From: Actinomycetota bacterium
GTDB lineage: Bacteria; Actinomycetota; Acidimicrobiia; Actinomarinales; Actinomarinaceae
Reading direction: 5' to 3'
Assembly (NCBI GenBank): GCA_014239265.1
Contig: JAAZZH010000003.1
Span: 3,953-67,952, forward strand
Length of the DNA: 64,000 nucleotides
This document shows, in pieces, positions 2,303 to 58,525 of the stretch (position 1 is its first letter; each line of letters opens with the position of its first letter). A model generated the notes under the pieces. That model was not told the DNA's origin. It ran no database searches and saw only the letters and a program-made list of their open reading frames with translations. Both the position numbers and the translations under genes were made by a program.

Positions 2303-3969
2303 CGGTAATAGCCACAGCAGGACATGTTGATCATGGAAAATCAACTCTAGTAAATTTTCTAACTGGACAAGAGACTGATAAACTAGCTGAAGAAAGAAGT
2401 CGTGGCTTAACAATAAATCTTGGATATACATTCTATGAGTATGCAGATCAAATAATCTCCATCGTTGACGTACCGGGGCACAGGGATTTCTTTAAAAACA
2501 CTGTTGCAGGTTTTTCAAATGCCGATGCGGTACTATTCGTCATCGACAGTACTCAAGGTTGGTCTGAACAGTCTGAGCAACACTTTAATGCTTTGATTGG
2601 GTTATCAAAATTGAACATCCTGTTCATCTTTACAAAATTAGATATGAAAGAATCAAATGTTGATGAACAATGGTTAATTGATAAAGTATCAAACATAAAG
2701 GACTTAAATTATAAGATTCTTAAATTTAATAAAAACTCAACAGATAAAGTCTCATTTATCGAAGATATACAAACATTTGTATCAACATGCACTAATGAGT
2801 ATTCATCTTTTTGGATTGATAGAAGTTTTTTAATTGATGGAATTGGTCGGATAGTAACGGGAACTGTTGGTTCAGGTTTTTCTCTTAGTGGTCCATTTAT
2901 TACTACAAGTGGTGAAAAACTAGAAGTAAAGAGTATTGAAAGCGTAAATAAAGAATACACTCAAGAAACTGGCTCACAACGAGTGGCTGTCTCTCTTAAA
3001 AAATCTAGTGGGGTAATACCTAAAAGAGGAGACTTATTATCAAATACTGTGTTGGCTGAATCTATTCACATTTTTATAAAACTAGATACTGAGAGTTCCA
3101 ACGAGATCAGAAATAATACCTTAAAGTTATTTGCTGGAACTTCTAATCATCTAGTTGAAAAAATCTGTCCTCTAAGGATTGGTAAGGAGACTTATGCTAT
3201 CGCAAAGTTAAGTAAACCTGCTGTCCTGCCGATGAAAGAAAAGATGGTACTACATAATATAGATATGGATTCCTTCATTGCCTGTGAATTTATGATGCCA
3301 ATTAATAATAAAAATCTTATAAAACATCTGATTAGAGAATCCAAAAAAAAAGCTTCTTACAATACCCTATATGACTTACTTTATTTTCTACCTTTTAAAT
3401 ATAGTGATCACTCGCTAAGGATTGGACAAATGTTTACTGATGAAGCTAATTTAAATCTGTTAAATCAGAATATAAAAGATAATGCAGAAAACATAAACAA
3501 ATTTGGTATCAAAAAATATCTACACGAAAAATTCTATATTGAAGAAGGAAATGTTCAATATCTCTTTGATGCATTTGATGATATATCTGTTAAAGAAAAT
3601 CAAATTAAGCTAAATAGTGATAATACAGAAGAGGACAAAAAAATACTTAAGCTAATTTCTAAAGAACTTGGTAGCGAATTAAAGGTTCCAGATATAAATC
3701 TTCAAAAATTTGATAGGGAGATTGTCAAAAATCTATTCTTAGAAGATAAGTTGATTAGAATTTCAAAGAATATTCTCTACACGGATAACCATTTTAAAGA
3801 ACTACTCAAAATTATTGACCAGCTACCAACAACATTTACTATTGCTGAATTTAAATCACTCAGTGGACTTTCTAGGAAATACACAATTCCAATATTGGAA
3901 ATTCTAGATAGTAAACAGATTATAAAAAAGATAGATTCTGAAGGAACACGGGAAAAACTAATCAGCTAA
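2299..3969 (+). CDS. selB: Selenocysteine-specific elongation factor
   Basis: N-terminal translational GTPase motifs (AGHVDHGKSTL, DVPGH, TKLD) plus a long C-terminal extension as in the SelB SECIS-binding region. Translationally coupled to selA. Confidence 0.85.
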   Translation: MTVIATAGHVDHGKSTLVNFLTGQETDKLAEERSRGLTINLGYTFYEYADQIISIVDVPGHRDFFKNTVAGFSNADAVLFVIDSTQGWSEQSEQHFNALIGLSKLNILFIFTKLDMKESNVDEQWLIDKVSNIKDLNYKILKFNKNSTDKVSFIEDIQTFVSTCTNEYSSFWIDRSFLIDGIGRIVTGTVGSGFSLSGPFITTSGEKLEVKSIESVNKEYTQETGSQRVAVSLKKSSGVIPKRGDLLSNTVLAESIHIFIKLDTESSNEIRNNTLKLFAGTSNHLVEKICPLRIGKETYAIAKLSKPAVLPMKEKMVLHNIDMDSFIACEFMMPINNKNLIKHLIRESKKKASYNTLYDLLYFLPFKYSDHSLRIGQMFTDEANLNLLNQNIKDNAENINKFGIKKYLHEKFYIEEGNVQYLFDAFDDISVKENQIKLNSDNTEEDKKILKLISKELGSELKVPDINLQKFDREIVKNLFLEDKLIRISKNILYTDNHFKELLKIIDQLPTTFTIAEFKSLSGLSRKYTIPILEILDSKQIIKKIDSEGTREKLIS

Positions 3970-4215
3970 TACTAAGTTTCTCTTTCTTTCAACTTCATTC
4001 ATGCCACCCCAGACGCCAAATGGTTCTGAAATTTCGTACGCTTCTTCTAGACATTCAAATCTTACAGGGCATCCATTACATACTGATTTTGCTTTTACTT
4101 CTCTTTTTTCTCTATCCTCTTTTTTTTCAAATGTAGCAGGTGGGAAGAAAAGATTACTGCTGTGTTGTCTACAAAGTGCATCGTACTGCCATGTCGAAGT
4201 GTTTATTTGTAACAT
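3958..4215 (-). CDS. whiB: WhiB-family Fe-S transcriptional regulator
   Basis: Four-Cys pattern C15...C46-x2-C49-x5-C55 (CNGCPVRFEC), a GVWGG turn and a basic C-terminal tail. Confidence 0.85.
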   Translation of the reverse strand: MLQINTSTWQYDALCRQHSSNLFFPPATFEKKEDREKREVKAKSVCNGCPVRFECLEEAYEISEPFGVWGGMNEVERKRNLVLAD

Positions 4216-4249: not shown

Positions 4250-4274
4250 AAGGTTTTTTTCGCGAAGTTTTGGT

Positions 4275-53326: not shown

Positions 53327-55747
53327 TTATTTTGAAGGCAGAAAGCCTAGAAGCCTATTAGAAAACTTATACTCGCCAACCCAGAAATGATATCCGTCCC
53401 AACTAATTCCTGATGCCATCTTTGTACCCATATTTGTTTTATCAGTTCTTCCTCCAAAGCTCATCGTTGGGGAGCTACCAGCTAAAGCATCTGAAATTGA
53501 GTTCCAACCAATAATCTTGTCGTCGCTTGGGATAAAGAATCCTTTTTCATTGAAGCTTACTTCTGACGGGCAGTCCTGACCTGGTACAGTTTGGTATGAA
53601 GGTGCACTTAGAGAAGAAAGTTCTAACACTTTGAAACTTGATCCACCTGGATAACAACCAATTGCTAAATGTGTATCATTCATATCTATTCTTCCTAAGT
53701 TTGTAAGATTTGGAAGTGAATATGTAGGGTTGTCAGATTTTTCAGGAACACCCTCCCAAATATAAATTGTATCCGAGCCTGAATCTGCAACTGCAAAATA
53801 ACTGCCGTTATAAGCTATTCCTCTTACACCTTGAAATGTGATATTGCCAATAGACTTTTCATTTAAATCAAAACTGTAATTACCTGTGTTGATTGTATCT
53901 TCAATATCGCTCCATCCAAATACACTGTTACCGCCTGCTAAATAAATCTCTTTACCGTGAACAACTAAGTCCCAAGGTGGTTGATCGAACCTTCGCATGA
54001 CTATATCTGGTGTAGCACCAGAACTTCCAGGAAGCTGTTTCCAGATTGAAAGCGATCTATCGAAATCAGATGAGACAAAAAGCATTGAGCCATTAGAGTC
54101 AATTATTGGATTTTGAATAATAAATTCGTCTATCAAAGGGTAGTCTGTCGGTTCATTAGCAAGCAATGCCCAGTCTGGTTTCTCTGTTGGAGAAGTAGGA
54201 ATTGTATCAAAAACAGATATTCGGTTTCCATTATATTCAGCAACAAATAATTTACCATCTACAACTGTTGCTCCTCCATCATCTCCGCCAGCCCATCTAT
54301 GGCCTTCTCCTGGATTAGCTATTTTTACATTTACCTGTAACTCTTGCGTACTGGTAAAAAGTTCATCATAAAAATACATAGTCTCTCCACCTGCAGCAAT
54401 ACCATAAATTTTTGAATCATGAATAGTGCCTGCGAGCCAGTTGTCTATACAGGCATCTGGGTCTCTTGAAGATGTTGGCCATGAAGTCCAAACATGAGTT
54501 GAGCGAGTTCCGTTTGACCCTATACATGGACCATTTGCATTTTCATCACCAAGCATTACATAGTTACCATCTGAAAGAATAGACCTAGGAGTACCAACTT
54601 GACTCGATGTTAAAACAACATCTGGCGATGTGGATGGACCTGGAAAAGAGTTCCAAAATAAAACTGCTTTTGCGACAGTTGCTGTAACAACAACTTTCGT
54701 GCCATCTGACCAAACACCCCAAGGCCACGAGTCACCAAAATTTACATAGTTAGTAATTGGGAGTGCATAATCAGCAGTCTGGCCGGAAGATGTAGGAAAA
54801 GATGTCCAAACAAGGACTCTATTATTATCTGAATCCGCTACTAGTACTTTTCCATCGGGAGTAATAATTACTTGACCTGGAAAATCCATATTGTTTAAAC
54901 CAGTTCCAGAATTATGTGTTGTAAAATTTGCTTGTCCTAAAACTAAATCTGGCGGTGTGTTTGATGATGGAATAGTGTTCCAGATTAATACTCTATTGTT
55001 AAATCTGTCAGTAACGGCTAACTTTCCATAATTTGCTGAAATTGAGACAGGGTGATTTAACTTGTTAGCACCTCCTGCATTATCAAACCCATACCCGGAA
55101 AGTAGAATGTCTCCTGTTTCATTTAACCCATAGCCAGTTTTTCCATTTGAGGTAGCAACAGAGTAACTTGGAGAGTATTCATAAATACTCAAGTCATACC
55201 ATGAACCCGTGTTTTTTTCGTCATCACGATCTTGTTTAGAGTTCCCTGAGGGAGGTGTTGCCTCGTCACCATTATTATCGCCTCCTCCTGCAGGTGGTTG
55301 AGCTACATTGTTTGAACTACTTGGATCTTCAAAACATGCAATCACGATTCCTGACTCAAAACTATCTGGGTTTAAATCAGTGACTATATTTTGATAAATC
55401 TCTGTTGGCAATGACTTAGAGATGCACTCTAAAACCTCATCTTCTGCTTCTTTTAAGATTTCTACAGCTTTTTCTATATCAACACCACCATTTTGAGGTG
55501 GTGGTGGATTGTCTCCTCCTTGAGGTGGTGGCGGATTGTCTCCTCCTTGAGGTGGTGGCGGATTTTCTTGTTTTTTATCATTCTCTGGTAAATTTTCCTC
55601 TCCAGGAGGAAGTGAAGAAGGCATATTTTCCAAATCTGGAGGGTCTGTGGGAAGCGGATTTTCTATAATTTCTGAAGTATTTTCTGGACTAGAGCAGGCT
55701 TGAAAGAGTAGAAAGAGTATTAACCCTATATTTATTGACTTTTTCAT
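53327..55747 (-). CDS. Large surface lipoprotein with a Pro-rich tandem repeat and NHL-like beta-propeller repeats
   Basis: Lipobox-like LFQAC, NPPPPQGGD x about 3, and recurrent D..NNRVL.W / NGNRISVF motifs. Confidence 0.55.
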   Translation of the reverse strand: MKKSINIGLILFLLFQACSSPENTSEIIENPLPTDPPDLENMPSSLPPGEENLPENDKKQENPPPPQGGDNPPPPQGGDNPPPPQNGGVDIEKAVEILKEAEDEVLECISKSLPTEIYQNIVTDLNPDSFESGIVIACFEDPSSSNNVAQPPAGGGDNNGDEATPPSGNSKQDRDDEKNTGSWYDLSIYEYSPSYSVATSNGKTGYGLNETGDILLSGYGFDNAGGANKLNHPVSISANYGKLAVTDRFNNRVLIWNTIPSSNTPPDLVLGQANFTTHNSGTGLNNMDFPGQVIITPDGKVLVADSDNNRVLVWTSFPTSSGQTADYALPITNYVNFGDSWPWGVWSDGTKVVVTATVAKAVLFWNSFPGPSTSPDVVLTSSQVGTPRSILSDGNYVMLGDENANGPCIGSNGTRSTHVWTSWPTSSRDPDACIDNWLAGTIHDSKIYGIAAGGETMYFYDELFTSTQELQVNVKIANPGEGHRWAGGDDGGATVVDGKLFVAEYNGNRISVFDTIPTSPTEKPDWALLANEPTDYPLIDEFIIQNPIIDSNGSMLFVSSDFDRSLSIWKQLPGSSGATPDIVMRRFDQPPWDLVVHGKEIYLAGGNSVFGWSDIEDTINTGNYSFDLNEKSIGNITFQGVRGIAYNGSYFAVADSGSDTIYIWEGVPEKSDNPTYSLPNLTNLGRIDMNDTHLAIGCYPGGSSFKVLELSSLSAPSYQTVPGQDCPSEVSFNEKGFFIPSDDKIIGWNSISDALAGSSPTMSFGGRTDKTNMGTKMASGISWDGYHFWVGEYKFSNRLLGFLPSK
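55493..55568 (-). repeat. 27-bp tandem repeat, about 2.8 copies, in-frame (encodes GGDNPPPPQ units)
   Basis: Units at 55493-55519 and 55520-55546 differ by 1 nt. The third unit decays after 18 nt. Confidence 0.85.
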
Positions 55748-55907: not shown

Positions 55908-57185
55908 TTAATTATTAATATGTATTGTTACGTCTTTTTTAGGAAAAGGGATGGGTGCCGGATTAATTATTAGCGGTTCAGTGGATGAAATCTCCTCAAT
56001 ATTAGAAACCAGCTTATATATGACATTCTTAAATAAATAACTAGCAAAGAATTTTCCAATACATGTATGTGCTCCTCCAGAAAATGGATAATAAGCCTCA
56101 TTTGGTTCATCTATATTTAAAAATCTCCTTGGATCACACTCTTGAGGATTATTAAAATATCGCTCATCATTGTGCAAAACTAACGGACCAATAGCTACAT
56201 AAGTTCCTGCATCTAATTCATAGTTGTCAACAACGGTATCTCTCATGACGTATCGTAAAGAGAAAGGGACAGGGGGGTACATTCGCATTGTCTCTGAGAA
56301 TAAAGATTCACCCTTGATACCATTTTTTAAATCTGAAGTATCAGTAAGTGACATCCCTTTTGCTTCCTCTCTTAACTCTTTATAAAAAGCTTTATCTGTA
56401 GAAAGGTGGTGAATAGCAGTAGTCAAGGTACTGGTTGTGGTGTCATGTGCAGCAAGAAGTAAAAATATCATATGCTCTGCAATCTCATAATTGCTTAAGC
56501 CAGCCTCATGTTTATTTGTTTTAACTAATTCAGCAAACAATGTATTTGACTCAGTATTTACATTTTTCGCCTTGTTTTCAAAATACTTCAGTAAAGACTG
56601 TCTCGCTTTAAGGCCTCTTCTTAATTTTGTAAAAGGAAGTGGAACTCTGACTACAGAGGTTGCAGATTTTATTGCATCTGTGAATAACTTCTCTAATTCT
56701 TTTTGTCGAGAGGTGTCAACTTCATCAAAAAATAATTGAAGTGAGATTTTGAACATCAACTCCTTCATAGCTGAATACAGATTAATTGCTTTACGTTCTT
56801 GAAGCTCTTCAATCCATGTGTCGAGTAGGGGTTGTACAATCTCTAAATAGTTAGCGAGAGCATCTCTCCTGAAAGAATCTTGAAGTAGGCCACGATGGAA
56901 CCTGTGGTCATCAAAATCTCTTAACATCAAACCATTTTCAAATGTTTTCCCTAAAGAAAACTCCCAACCATGTTTAGATGAAAAATTATCTTCAGCATCT
57001 AAAAAAATATGCTTAGTAGCACTAGGGGTCATAAACATGGTTACTCTTTTGTGCAAAATAGAGATCTCAAAAATGTCTCCATATTTTTCCTGAAGGTTTT
57101 TGACCATAGACAGAGCATTGTTGTTAAATTTTATAGAGTGACCAAAGAAAGGGTTTCCTTTATCTAAAGGGGGCTTAATCATCAT
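55908..57185 (-). CDS. Cytochrome P450
   Basis: Heme loop FSGGAHTCIGKFFA, I-helix LLAAHDTTTS, and the ExxR motif in ETMRMYPP. Confidence 0.88.
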   Translation of the reverse strand: MMIKPPLDKGNPFFGHSIKFNNNALSMVKNLQEKYGDIFEISILHKRVTMFMTPSATKHIFLDAEDNFSSKHGWEFSLGKTFENGLMLRDFDDHRFHRGLLQDSFRRDALANYLEIVQPLLDTWIEELQERKAINLYSAMKELMFKISLQLFFDEVDTSRQKELEKLFTDAIKSATSVVRVPLPFTKLRRGLKARQSLLKYFENKAKNVNTESNTLFAELVKTNKHEAGLSNYEIAEHMIFLLLAAHDTTTSTLTTAIHHLSTDKAFYKELREEAKGMSLTDTSDLKNGIKGESLFSETMRMYPPVPFSLRYVMRDTVVDNYELDAGTYVAIGPLVLHNDERYFNNPQECDPRRFLNIDEPNEAYYPFSGGAHTCIGKFFASYLFKNVIYKLVSNIEEISSTEPLIINPAPIPFPKKDVTIHINN

Positions 57186-57221
57186 ATATTTACAACTTTA
57201 AATAAATTAAGTCCAGAAAGC

Positions 57222-57304
57222 AAAAATCCCAGTTGATCTTGCGACCCTCCGGGATTTTCTACACTATTTCATTTTCGGTCTTGCGACTTCTTTTTCTTTA
57301 GTGT
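57222..57304 (-). ncRNA. Candidate ~83-nt small RNA / 5' leader, copy 1
   Basis: Minus strand: promoter TTGCCA-17-TAAATT (57339-57311). Then 6-bp outer stem ACACTA/TAGTGT enclosing GTC-GCAA-GAC. Then AAAATCCC-GGAG-GGTC-GCAA-GATC-AACT-GGGATTTTT (terminator). Confidence 0.4.
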
Positions 57305-57310
57305 TTAATA

Positions 57311-57339
57311 AATTTACCTAATAATGGTCAGTTTGGCAA
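57311..57339 (-). promoter_or_regulatory. Candidate sigma-A-type promoter of the sRNA-like module, copy 1
   Basis: TTGCCA (57339-57334), 17-nt spacer, TAAATT (57316-57311). The only two substitutions between R1 and R2 lie in this spacer. Confidence 0.35.
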
Positions 57340-57418
57340 GAAAATTGAGCTTGTTTTTTTCGCGAACTTTTATACATAATACTTATATTTTTTTAAGTTA
57401 TTTGAATAATATTCACTT

Positions 57419-57898
57419 ATGGAAGTACGGATTGTAACTAAAACTGACTGGTCTAAGGTAAGAGAAATTTATCAACTTGGAATTGATACAGGTGTTGCAA
57501 CATTTGAAACCTCTCCTCCTGTTGAATTTCAAACATGGATAAATAAAGTTGATAAAGAGAATGGGTTTGTATGTATCAAAAATGAGGAATTACTCGGTTG
57601 GGCAACATTAAGTAAAGTTTCATCAAGATGTGCTTATGAAGGGGTGGGTGAAGTTTCAATTTATGTAGATCCTAAATATCAGAAACAATTAGTTGGGGAA
57701 GCCCTCTATGAGACTCTTGAGCGTTCTGCTCTGAAAACTGGGTATTGGACTTTACAAGCACAGCTATTTACACAGAATGTTGCTTCAAAGGCTTTTTTTG
57801 AAAAACATGGTTTTAGAGAAGTTGGCATAAGAAAAAAGATTGGTCAGCTTAATGGTGAGTGGGTAGATAATTATCTGTTTGAGAAAAACTTCAACTAA
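57419..57898 (+). CDS. GNAT N-acetyltransferase of the phosphinothricin/methionine-sulfoximine acetyltransferase (PAT/MddA) type
   Basis: IYQLGIDTGVATFET, GWATLSKVSSRCAYEGVGEVSIYV, N..S..FFEKHGF and G.....W.D pattern typical of PAT-family GNATs. Confidence 0.78.
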   Translation: MEVRIVTKTDWSKVREIYQLGIDTGVATFETSPPVEFQTWINKVDKENGFVCIKNEELLGWATLSKVSSRCAYEGVGEVSIYVDPKYQKQLVGEALYETLERSALKTGYWTLQAQLFTQNVASKAFFEKHGFREVGIRKKIGQLNGEWVDNYLFEKNFN

Positions 57899-58053
57899 AA
57901 GCAAAAATCCCAGTTGATCTTGCGACCCTCCGGGATTTTCTACACTATTTCATTTTCGGTCTTGCGACTTCTTTTTCTTTAGTGTTTAATAAATTTACCT
58001 AACAATGGTGAGTTTGGCAAGAAAATCATTAATCTATTTTTCGCGAACATTTT
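57898..58053. repeat. Direct repeat copy 2 (R2) of the ~156-bp module
   Basis: See R1. Starts at the last base of the PAT stop codon and ends within the stop codon of the 58052-58525 ORF. Confidence 0.92.
57903..57985 (-). ncRNA. Candidate ~83-nt small RNA, copy 2 (transcribed part identical to copy 1)
   Basis: Same promoter (58020-57992), hairpins and terminator as copy 1. Points into the 3' end of the PAT gene (antisense). Confidence 0.4.
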
Positions 58054-58525
58054 AGATATTTAATTCATTTAGTAGGCTCTCTAACTCGTCTGCCTCAATG
58101 TTTTCGACAAATACAGAATAGGTCTCATCATTAAATGTAAATTTAACATAGTCTTCATGCAGAACTGCTTCCTGCAGGTCTTGTATGTCTTTAATAACTG
58201 TAAGAAGTTTTTCAGAAGTTCTCATTGCTATTTTATGTTCTGATATTTCAAGAACTGGCTGAAAAATACTTTGTACAGCAGTAAAGAGTTGGAAACCCCC
58301 AACGAGTAAAATGAGATAGTATAGAACTTCCTCACGGATGTTTGACCCAAATTCATTCAGTGAAATATAATTTTTTAAAAAATTCCTAAAAGGGCCATTA
58401 AAAATATTATCAATAGACACATAAGTAAGAGAAAAGCCAGTAAGAAGTATCGGCAGCATCTTCTGCGGTGATCTATAAAGTTTTCTGTTCATTATTTTAT
58501 TTCTTTTCCTATCAGAATAACTCAA
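58052..58525 (-). CDS. Hypothetical membrane protein
   Basis: Basic N-terminus, two TM segments and an acidic C-terminal domain. The start codon is ambiguous (several ATGs). Confidence 0.4.
   Translation of the reverse strand: MSYSDRKRNKIMNRKLYRSPQKMLPILLTGFSLTYVSIDNIFNGPFRNFLKNYISLNEFGSNIREEVLYYLILLVGGFQLFTAVQSIFQPVLEISEHKIAMRTSEKLLTVIKDIQDLQEAVLHEDYVKFTFNDETYSVFVENIEADELESLLNELNI

What the first reader, a model, noticed from the sequence alone, without database searches (positions are those of the whole stretch)
57217..58053. Single PAT-type acetyltransferase gene bracketed by ~156-bp direct repeats (R-pat-R), a Campbell-type or cassette-like structure
R1 (57217-57372) and R2 (57898-58053) are in direct orientation with a period of exactly 681 bp. 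The first 129 nt differ at only 2 positions, and after a 10-nt variable patch TTTTTTCGCGAAC realigns in register. The only thing between them is a 159-aa GNAT of the phosphinothricin/methionine-sulfoximine acetyltransferase type, which gives antimetabolite resistance. Its stop codon runs into R2.

R-gene-R is what is left by integration of a circular R+gene element through homologous or site-specific recombination at a resident R. It is also what tandem duplication of an R-containing segment would leave. It predicts easy loss or amplification of pat by R x R recombination. No integrase or transposase is present, so the mechanism, if mobile, is not a described one.
Basis: seen in the sequence. 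Interest (0 to 1): 0.65.

Follow-up and report, generated by a model that had tools for sequence, protein, structure and literature searches.

The report
Small-RNA gene pair bracketing a swappable gene
The two 156-bp repeats around the acetyltransferase gene are two old copies of an undescribed, abundantly transcribed small-RNA gene of the marine bacterium Candidatus Actinomarina, and wild populations swap or lose the gene between them by ordinary recombination within those copies.

Summary
In detail: R1 (57217-57372) and R2 (57898-58053) are direct repeats with a 681-bp period, and only pat lies between them.

R is not an integration scar. On the minus strand each R is a full transcription unit. 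It has an invariant TTCGCGAA palindrome, a -35/-10 promoter, a structured RNA of about 88 nt with two GCAA-tetraloop hairpins, and an intrinsic terminator. It matches no Rfam family. In metatranscriptomes the transcribed part is 100-300 times deeper than the neighbouring genes, and the promoter part has no coverage.

Both copies occur at this one locus in about 25 Actinomarina species, including species without pat. A diagnostic patch shows they are old paralogues, homogenised by gene conversion.

The space between them is a variable slot. It holds pat (two allele classes), a lipoprotein gene, a membrane-protein gene, P450, remnants, or nothing. Contigs of the window's own species include single-R alleles without pat, exactly the R2 x R1 product. 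One pat allele is a between-species mosaic with both breakpoints inside R.

So the cassette-like behaviour is real. It works by homologous recombination on conserved RNA genes, not by a mobile element. The function of the RNA is unknown.

The parts
57217..57372 (-). R1: whole repeat unit (operator-like palindrome, promoter, RNA, terminator). This is the copy directly upstream of P450 (Rb lineage, AAAAAAA patch).
57898..58053 (-). R2: whole repeat unit. This is the copy directly downstream of ORF157 (Ra lineage, AAAAATA patch), with its promoter and transcribed part converted to the Rb type.
57217..57306 (-). Predicted R1 small RNA, about 88-90 nt. P1/P2 domain at 57264-57301; terminator stem with inner GGUC-GCAA-GAUC hairpin at 57223-57258; U-rich tail at 57217-57222.
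   Evidence: Covariance-model hit 57217-57311 at 113 bits; fold and covariation; RNA contigs with word depth 230-1900 here and 0 at 57308-57358
57898..57987 (-). Predicted R2 small RNA. P1/P2 domain at 57945-57982; terminator at 57904-57939. It also serves as terminator for ORF157 and sits tail to tail with pat.
   Evidence: Covariance-model hit 57898-57992; 88-nt RNA contig 57898-57985 in X5; adapter-joined ends at 57907-57909
57311..57339 (-). R1 promoter-like site: -35 TTGCCA (57339-57334), 17-nt spacer, -10 TAAATT (57316-57311).
   Evidence: TTGC and TAnATT are conserved while the spacer varies across species
57992..58020 (-). R2 promoter-like site: -35 TTGCCA (58020-58015), 17-nt spacer, -10 TAAATT (57997-57992).
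57356..57366 (-). R1 TTCGCGAAAAA: invariant palindrome TTCGCGAA (57359-57366) plus A tract, 19 nt upstream of the -35. Candidate regulator binding site.
58037..58047 (-). R2 TTCGCGAAAAA (palindrome at 58040-58047), starting 3 nt after the ORF157 stop.
57340..57355 (-). R1 lineage-diagnostic patch (AAAAAAACAAGCTCAA type). The matching R2 patch at 58021-58036 is AAAAATAGATTAATGA.
57419..57898 (+). pat: 159-aa GNAT of the PAT/ArsN1 clade, one of several alternative cargos of the slot. A -10-like TAATAT lies 6 nt before the ATG, suggesting a leaderless mRNA (inference).
   Evidence: expressed in X11
55908..57185 (-). Cytochrome P450 gene. Its start codon is 31 nt after the R1 terminator. In distant species this gene itself lies between the two R copies.
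58052..58525 (-). ORF157 (gene callers use the 135-aa start at 58459): Actinomarina-specific hypothetical protein. This is the conserved left border of the slot.

Best explanation
R is a self-contained small-RNA transcription unit on the minus strand. It consists of a TTCGCGAA palindrome (probably a regulator site), a -35/-10 promoter, a structured RNA of about 88 nt (stem P1, a 3-bp hairpin with a GCAA tetraloop, purine-rich conserved loops) and an intrinsic terminator that contains a second GCAA hairpin. Candidatus Actinomarina genomes carry two old paralogous copies, Ra and Rb, at one locus between ORF157 and the P450/lipoprotein genes. Selection on the RNA plus gene conversion keeps them nearly identical.

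Because these are the best-conserved stretches of the region across species, RecA-type homologous recombination uses them in two ways. Ra x Rb crossover deletes what lies between and leaves one chimeric R. Double crossover in the two copies swaps the cargo between strains and species. pat is simply the current cargo in this genome.

Shown here: the anatomy, conservation, compensatory changes, discrete abundant transcript, paralogy, the alternative alleles and the mosaic breakpoints. Inferred: the recombination pathway, the regulator site, and what the RNA does. My leaning is a regulatory small RNA under a shared transcription factor, and possibly also an attenuating leader for the gene directly downstream.
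For: RNA gene.
- The minus strand folds better than shuffles (z -2.6 and -3.9), against -1.0 for the plus strand.
- There is a promoter-like site in both copies.
- Across 67 distinct copies the transcribed part and TTCGCGAA are near invariant, while the promoter spacer and flanks diverge.
- 97.6% of cells are paired, and 4 pairs show compensatory changes (G-C to A-U in P2 and in the terminator, two in P1). Slid controls give 28-51% paired. RNAalifold finds the same structure.
- A 1-nt indel excludes the 22-aa plus-strand ORF.

Transcription.
- In metatranscriptomes X12 and X14 the word depth is 1000-1900 on the transcribed part, 3-8 on pat and ORF157, and 0 on the promoter part of the same repeat.
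- DNA runs X25 and X26 give a repeat-to-flank ratio of only 2-3, and there the promoter part is covered.

Old paralogues.
- R occurs in 25 Actinomarinales genome stretches, always at this locus.
- The patch rule holds in 56 of 56 first copies and 50 of 50 last copies. 38 first copies carry the Rb-type hairpin, which indicates conversion.

Slot and recombination.
- Layouts seen: R-P450-R, R-pat-R, R-R, R-pat remnant-R, three R copies, and R-lipoprotein-R.
- Single-R alleles occur in conspecific contigs of 1.8-61 kb (two over 50 kb), with the Ra-side and R1-side flanks. A run contig skips exactly 681 nt.
- L052 is 95-100% window-like outside the repeats. From the R2 terminator to the R1 promoter it is 93-100% like L059, whose flanks are only 65-85% identical to L052.
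Against: - All RNA evidence comes from unstranded assembler contigs of metatranscriptomes. R words are shared by several species, which inflates depth. The zero coverage of the equally shared promoter part controls for most of that.
- Covariation is modest because the RNA is so conserved: 4 of 22 pairs vary on both sides.
- No target, ligand or protein partner was identified. A duplex scan against gene starts in the window was uninformative.
- Single-R alleles could in principle be ancestral empty sites rather than deletions.
- Several pat or lipoprotein losses happened by internal deletion that kept both R copies. R x R crossover is therefore not the only route.
- The step that moved P450 from inside the pair (distant species) to outside it is not explained.
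Confidence: 0.8

Rival explanations
1. Site-specific or Campbell-type cassette. R is an attachment site, and R+pat is a small circular element that integrates at a resident R using a recombinase encoded elsewhere.
For: R-gene-R geometry with single-R alleles and alternative cargo. A three-R array with two slots in L046 resembles a cassette array.
Against: - No recombinase within about 10 kb on the P450 side or 6 kb on the ORF157 side.
- Both R copies exist without pat in all distant species.
- The copies are lineage-distinct paralogues with their own promoters.
- R is an expressed structured RNA.
- R is found only at this locus and not in viral contigs.
- Conversion tracts and mosaic breakpoints differ in extent, which fits homologous rather than site-specific exchange.
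Confidence: 0.07
2. R is mainly a cis-acting leader: a riboswitch-like or protein-controlled attenuator. Its terminator gates read-through into the gene directly downstream (P450, or the lipoprotein gene in other layouts). R2 in this window is an orphaned leader left when pat replaced the lipoprotein gene.
For: - An R terminator lies 17-33 nt upstream of the start codon of P450 or the lipoprotein gene in every layout.
- Unpaired nucleotides in a compact P1/P2 domain are conserved.
- An RNA contig runs from P450 into R1 in X10, where pat has no coverage.
- Short terminated leaders are typically abundant.
Against: - Orphan copies are kept intact across several species with nothing in sense orientation downstream.
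- The sequence of the terminator hairpin itself is invariant, which is unusual for an expression platform.
- Good -10 boxes sit 4-6 nt before the start codons (TGGTATAAT-N6-GTG for the lipoprotein gene). This suggests the downstream genes have their own leaderless promoters.
- No alternative antiterminator pairing was found, and there is no Rfam match.
Confidence: 0.3
3. R has no RNA-level function. It is only a conserved intergenic block (a bidirectional terminator plus a promoter), duplicated long ago and kept similar by gene conversion alone.
For: The hairpin with an A tract before and a T tract after can terminate the convergent ORF157 and pat transcripts. Conversion between the copies is evident.
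Against: Conversion inside a genome cannot explain near-invariance between species whose neighbouring genes are 65-85% identical at the nucleotide level, with ORF157 proteins only 44-75% identical. Compensatory changes preserve P1, P2 and the stem. Loop nucleotides are invariant.
Confidence: 0.08
4. Recent tandem duplication of an R-containing segment in this lineage.
For: Exact 681-bp period and 98% identity over 129 nt.
Against: The upstream patches differ and each is orthologous across species. Two copies are present in all species regardless of cargo.
Confidence: 0.02

Closest known systems
Paralogous small-RNA gene pairs under one regulator (PrrF1/PrrF2 of Pseudomonas, OmrA/OmrB of E. coli). 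From my own knowledge.
   Same: Two near-identical small-RNA genes in direct orientation at one locus. Each has its own promoter, a shared upstream regulator motif and an intrinsic terminator, and the pair evolves in concert.
   Different: The sequence and structure are unrelated and there is no Rfam family. No regulator or targets are known. Here a variable protein gene sits between the copies.
Flexible genomic islands and tRNA-direct-repeat cassette sites described in Ca. Actinomarinales (PMC7771536)
   Same: Same organisms. Direct repeats of an RNA gene flank small gene cassettes that differ between closely related genomes and move between genera.
   Different: Those repeats are partial tRNA copies left by site-directed insertion. 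Here both repeats are complete, expressed copies of a non-tRNA RNA gene that pre-date the cargo, and the breakpoints fit homologous recombination.
Integron gene cassettes with conserved attC repeats (for example Vibrio cholerae repeats). From my own knowledge.
   Same: Direct repeats of about 120-150 bp bracket single small genes. Cargo varies, empty sites exist, and L046 has a three-repeat array.
   Different: There is no IntI integrase and no attC-type imperfect palindrome with core sites. Only 1-3 copies are present. The repeat carries a promoter and terminator and is transcribed as a discrete RNA.
Riboswitch or attenuator leaders
   Same: A promoter, a compact conserved fold and an intrinsic terminator lie directly before an ORF. 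The same element stands before two different genes (P450 and the lipoprotein gene).
   Different: No known class matches. Orphan copies persist. No antiterminator was found. The downstream genes appear to have their own leaderless promoters.
PAT / MddA / ArsN1 GNAT acetyltransferases (the cargo)
   Same: GNAT fold families match. The closest models are ArsN1 family A and phosphinothricin N-acetyltransferase.
   Different: Scores are below the curated equivalog cut-offs (130 against 170, 54 against 300), so the substrate (methionine sulfoximine, phosphinothricin, arsinothricin or another) is open.

Membership tests
Bacterial small-RNA gene (independent transcription unit) | Own promoter upstream of a conserved non-coding segment | tested here: met
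   TTGCCA-17-TAAATT in both copies. TTGC and TAnATT are conserved with a variable spacer across 67 copies.
Bacterial small-RNA gene (independent transcription unit) | Intrinsic terminator at the 3' end | tested here: met
   A 10-bp stem plus an inner 4-bp GCAA hairpin, followed by UUUUUGCUUU. Adapter-joined fragment ends lie at the base of the U tract.
Bacterial small-RNA gene (independent transcription unit) | Discrete transcript detected | tested here: met
   Metatranscriptome contigs are confined to the predicted RNA at depth 1000-1900. The promoter part has 0 and neighbouring genes 3-8. DNA runs are flat, at 2-3 times the flanks. The strand was not measured.
Bacterial small-RNA gene (independent transcription unit) | Structure supported by compensatory changes | tested here: met
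   4 of 22 pairs changed on both sides, 97.6% of cells paired, slid controls 28-51%. The support is modest because divergence is low.
Bacterial small-RNA gene (independent transcription unit) | Trans-acting regulation of target mRNAs or proteins | not testable with these tools
   The duplex scan against gene starts in the window was uninformative.
Any Rfam family | Covariance-model match | tested here: not met
   No hit at gathering score in the window. No relevant hit at E<=10 around R. No hit at E<=1 in three divergent loci.
Riboswitch / transcription attenuator | Located in the 5' leader of the regulated gene in all copies | tested here: inconclusive
   R1 and all P450- or lipoprotein-proximal copies meet it, at 17-33 nt from the start codon. 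R2 and its orthologues face the 3' end of an antisense gene.
Riboswitch / transcription attenuator | Ligand- or protein-dependent switch between terminator and antiterminator | not testable with these tools
   No alternative pairing was evident by inspection.
Integron cassette / attC | Tyrosine recombinase IntI adjacent to the array | tested here: not met
   No recombinase domains in the ORFs scanned between 47 and 64 kb. None was seen in the called genes of related loci.
Integron cassette / attC | Repeat is a recombination site, not a gene, and its copies arise with each cassette | tested here: not met
   The copies pre-date the cargo and are lineage-specific paralogues.
Campbell-type integration scar (attL/attR) | The duplication is created by the insertion, so the empty site is the ancestral state in relatives | tested here: not met
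   All other species have two copies whether or not pat is present. Single-R alleles were seen only within the window's species.
Dispersed repeat (MITE / REP-like) | Many copies at unrelated loci | tested here: not met
   Only this locus in each of about 25 genomes, 2 copies in the 64 kb, none in viral contigs. A preprint reports that most complete genomes have only 2 internal repeats, with a median longest repeat of 152 bp.
Direct-repeat homologous recombination (deletion and allelic replacement) | Deletion product keeps one hybrid repeat with the outer flanks of both | tested here: met
   L048, L049, L051, L061 and L098. An X47 contig skips exactly 681 nt.
Direct-repeat homologous recombination (deletion and allelic replacement) | Mosaic alleles with breakpoints inside the conserved repeats | tested here: met
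   L052 compared with the window and with L059 in 60-nt windows, and segment identities.
PAT/ArsN1-type GNAT | Score above the curated equivalog cut-off | tested here: not met
   ArsN1a 130 bits against a cut-off of 170; PAT 54 bits against 300. The Pfam GNAT domains are met.

The most novel reading that the evidence does not exclude
The R RNA is a new class of regulatory RNA: a riboswitch-like or protein-binding attenuator, or a small RNA. It would belong to a TTCGCGAA-controlled regulon that also includes a WhiB-like transcription factor, in one of the most abundant bacteria of the surface ocean. Its duplicated genes would double as built-in homology arms that let a genome without mobile elements trade detoxification and surface-protein genes across species.
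Probability: 0.25. Interest if true: 0.7.

Novelty: new variant of a known kind. Interest (0 to 1): 0.55.

Why it matters
Actinomarina is among the smallest and most abundant marine bacteria. It has almost no repeats or mobile elements and no cultured representative. This locus provides three things.

- An undescribed, genus-wide, highly transcribed structured RNA with a candidate operator. That is a rare handle on regulation in these cells.
- A worked natural example of how streamlined genomes gain, lose and exchange single genes without integrases. They recombine on short, ultra-conserved RNA genes, and all the intermediates are visible in public metagenomes: full, empty, swapped, decayed and mosaic.
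- A caution for annotation. R-gene-R geometry alone does not indicate a mobile cassette.

Tried and rejected
- **Coding potential.** I rejected a 22-aa plus-strand ORF inside R, because a 1-nt indel in otherwise conserved copies breaks the frame.
- **Apparent insertion in L003.** The 100-nt 'insertion' in R is a scaffold gap of Ns.
- **Circular R+pat molecules.** The contigs of 736-787 bp that hold pat between partial R copies (L004, L005) have asymmetric ends. They are assembly-graph fragments, not circles.
- **Third, decayed R downstream of P450.** Only a 14-bit chance-level hit was found.
- **Target prediction.** RNAduplex of the R single-stranded part against 72 gene starts did not single out the neighbours.
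- **Lipoprotein cargo.** No Pfam, NCBIfam or PDB match.
- **Other checks.** tRNA/tmRNA scan: none in the window. Viral contigs: no R.
- **Strand and end mapping.** All RNA runs found are held only as assembler contigs, so this could not be done.
- **History of the layouts.** I could not reconstruct how P450 and the lipoprotein gene changed places between layouts.

Full report
**1. The observation**

R1 (57217-57372) and R2 (57898-58053) are direct repeats 681 bp apart. The first 129 nt differ at two positions. A 10-nt patch then differs, after which TTTTTCGCGAAC realigns in register. A 41-nt core occurs exactly twice in the window and never in 100 shuffles.

The only gene between the repeats is a 159-aa GNAT at 57419-57898 on the plus strand. 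The last base of its stop codon is the first base of R2. Its closest curated models are arsinothricin-resistance ArsN1 family A (130 bits, cut-off 170) and phosphinothricin acetyltransferase. PDB PAT-like chains match at about 1e-11.

On the minus strand the order is ORF157, R2, pat (antisense), R1, cytochrome P450. No integrase or transposase domain was found in the ORFs scanned between 47 and 64 kb. Homologues of ORF157 carry the names Candidatus Actinomarina and Actinobacteria, so the organism is one of the ultra-small marine Actinomarinales.

**2. What R is**

Read on the minus strand, each R has four parts.

- The palindrome TTCGCGAA followed by an A tract.
- 19 nt later, a promoter-like site: TTGCCA, 17 nt, TAAATT.
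- About 7 nt later, a conserved stretch of roughly 88 nt.
- A strong hairpin followed by UUUUUGCUUU.

The minus strand folds better than shuffled sequence (z -2.6 and -3.9). The plus strand does not (z -1.0).

I collected 85 copies (67 distinct) from related contigs and genomes. The transcribed part and TTCGCGAA are almost invariant between species whose ORF157 proteins are only 44-75% identical. The promoter spacer and everything outside R diverge, except for TTGC at the -35 and TAnATT at the -10. That is the conservation pattern of an RNA gene with a promoter.

The consensus structure has these elements:

- a 5-bp stem P1;
- a 3-bp hairpin with a GCAA tetraloop (RUC-GCAA-GAY);
- purine-rich conserved loops;
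- a 10-bp terminator stem that encloses a second hairpin, GGUC-GCAA-GAUC.

On 23 distinct sequences, 97.6% of cells pair and four pairs show changes on both sides. Sliding the partners gives only 28-51% pairing. RNAalifold predicts the same structure independently. A 1-nt indel in some copies rules out the short plus-strand ORF. No Rfam family matches at any threshold.

**3. Transcription**

In two metatranscriptomes (X12, X14) assembler word depth is 1000-1900 on the predicted RNA. It is 3-8 on pat and ORF157, and 0 on the promoter part of the same repeat. In two DNA metagenomes (X25, X26) the whole repeat, promoter part included, is only 2-3 times the depth of its flanks. Because the promoter part is shared between copies and species in the same way as the RNA part, it serves as an internal control.

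An 88-nt RNA contig in X5 spans 57898-57985, which are the predicted ends. Sequencing adapters are joined directly at 57907-57909, the base of the terminator.

Contigs carry no strand information. The strand is therefore inferred from the promoter, the terminator and the fold.

**4. The two copies are old paralogues, not an insertion scar**

A scan of one genome per species found the R core in 25 Actinomarinales genome stretches plus one chance hit, and nowhere else. All 25 lie at this same locus. Most distant species have ORF157, R, P450, R, lipoprotein gene, with no pat at all.

In every multi-copy locus the copy next to ORF157 has AAAAATA after TTCGCG (56 of 56). The other copy has AAAAAAA (50 of 50).

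In distant species the two copies also differ in the first hairpin: AUC..GAU in one, GUC..GAC in the other. In the window's wider clade, 38 first copies carry the second copy's hairpin type, and in the window itself its promoter as well. This is gene conversion.

A covariance model finds only two copies in the 64 kb. R is absent from viral contigs. A 2026 preprint on 84 complete Actinomarina genomes reports that most have only two internal repeats, with a median longest repeat of 152 bp. That fits R, but the preprint does not describe it.

**5. The slot between the copies is variable**

These states were seen:

- pat of the window type (window, L001/2/6/7, L037, L050);
- a pat allele 85% identical at the nucleotide level, in the same species background (L052-54, L068, L069, L086);
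- a second pat class about 60% identical at the protein level (L010-15, L040, L063-67, L070);
- a lipoprotein gene on the same strand as R (L038, L045, L056, L057, L071), homologous to the gene that follows the second R in distant species;
- a remnant of that lipoprotein gene (L073);
- a pat remnant made by an internal deletion, in contigs whose ORF157-homologue protein is identical to that of a pat-bearing contig (L016-20 against L021);
- two R copies 227 nt apart with nothing between them (L009, L033, L055);
- three R copies with two slots, holding a pat fragment plus a membrane-protein gene, and a pat of the second class (L046).

**6. Recombination on R**

Five contigs of the window's own species carry one R and no pat: L048, L049, L051, L061 and L098. 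Their ORF157 is 90-96% identical at the protein level. P450 is 98-99% identical in four of them and 89% in L098. Contig lengths run up to 61 kb. Each R has the ORF157-side flank and patch of R2 and the P450-side flank of R1. That is exactly the product of R2 x R1 crossover. A contig in run X47 skips exactly 681 nt.

L052 is 95-100% identical to the window in ORF157 and P450. From the R2 terminator through pat to the R1 promoter part it is 93-100% identical to L059, a species whose flanks are only 65-85% identical to L052. Both breakpoints of this exchanged tract lie inside the R copies.

R offers perfect identity runs of 36-44 nt across species where the flanking genes do not. It is the natural anchor for homologous exchange. 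This last step is inference from known requirements of RecA-type recombination.

**7. Mechanism and what remains open**

I conclude that R-pat-R is a swap-prone slot between two paralogous copies of a conserved small-RNA gene. Loss and exchange proceed by homologous recombination and need no element-encoded recombinase.

The function of the RNA is not established. An R terminator always sits 17-33 nt before the start codon of P450 or of the lipoprotein gene, and one RNA contig runs from P450 into R1. An attenuating-leader role is therefore possible.

Three observations point instead to an independent small RNA:

- those genes have good -10 boxes 4-6 nt before their start codons (TGGTATAAT-N6-GTG), typical of leaderless actinobacterial mRNAs;
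- orphan copies such as R2 stay intact;
- the terminator hairpin itself is invariant.

The same extended motif, TTCGCGAAAAAAAC, lies 9 nt upstream of the -35 of a WhiB-like gene elsewhere in the window. This hints at a shared regulator.

**8. Comparison and novelty**

The locus behaves like a miniature flexible genomic island, and the repeats look superficially like integron attC repeats or Campbell scars. It fails the defining tests for both:

- no integrase is present;
- the repeats pre-date the cargo;
- the repeats are expressed genes;
- they occur at a single locus.

It is closest to paralogous small-RNA gene pairs, combined with direct-repeat homologous recombination. The RNA family is undescribed in Rfam 15. 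I rate it a new variant of a known kind, of moderate interest.

Noticed in passing
window 4253-4266 (minus strand), upstream of the ORF at 3958-4215 (minus strand): A third copy of the extended motif AAAAcTTCGCGAAAAAAAC lies 9 nt upstream of a TTGCCA-16-TATTGT promoter-like site. That site would start a leaderless mRNA at the ATG of an 85-aa WhiB-like protein (Cys-X-Cys-X2-Cys-X5-Cys, GVWGG). In R the palindrome is 19 nt from the -35, one helical turn further. This may be a shared regulator site. In 830 kb of held loci the motif occurs only in R copies and here.
   Followed up: partly
window 55493-55573: Three tandem 27-nt units inside the 806-aa NHL-repeat lipoprotein gene (53327-55747, minus strand). 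They encode a PPPPQGGDN repeat near the N terminus.
   Followed up: no
L046 (MAG LRMED-058), original coordinates 705-2543: Three R copies with two slots. One slot holds a 46-aa 3' fragment of window-type pat fused to a 179-aa membrane-protein ORF on the R strand. The other holds a complete pat of the second class. The middle R has the divergent AUC..GAU hairpin type and a promoter like that of the L010 clade, which suggests an imported block.
   Followed up: partly
L023 3439-4179, L035 1068-1778, L085 and L097 4129-4836: In some distant species an AlkD-like 'DNA alkylation repair enzyme' gene (PF08713) sits between ORF157 and the first R. This is another variable element of the neighbourhood.
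   Followed up: no
L098 4409-5702: A single-R contig whose ORF157 is 96% identical to the window but whose P450 is only 89%. Its R carries the GAUUUAG-CAG variant typical of another clade. It looks like a between-species crossover located in R.
   Followed up: partly
window 57379 joined to 57897, in DNA run X26 (depth 2.4 against about 14): A low-depth contig joins the 7 nt after R1 directly to the base before R2. This would be a pat-less variant with the two R copies 8 nt apart, different from the 227-nt R-R layout of L009, L033 and L055. It rests on a single contig with a 27-nt side.
   Followed up: partly
L075 2854-2873; also L023, L032; window 57186-57216 and 57407-57418: The genes next to R appear leaderless: TGGTATAAT-N6-GTG for the lipoprotein gene, TAAATA or TATTTT a few nt before ATGATG of P450, and TAATAT-N6-ATG for pat. 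No Shine-Dalgarno sequence is visible.
   Followed up: partly
L087, L089-L094, L099, L100: Metagenome contigs with P450 homologues 56-57% identical have no R within up to 5 kb on either side. R is therefore restricted to part of the order, or these are paralogous P450 loci.
   Followed up: no
L045 1867-2139 and L038 32-802: The lipoprotein cargo has a lipobox signal peptide followed by a run of TTTQQE repeats. It has no Pfam, NCBIfam or PDB sequence match. It is a family of unknown function that is itself repeatedly lost (remnant in L073).
   Followed up: partly
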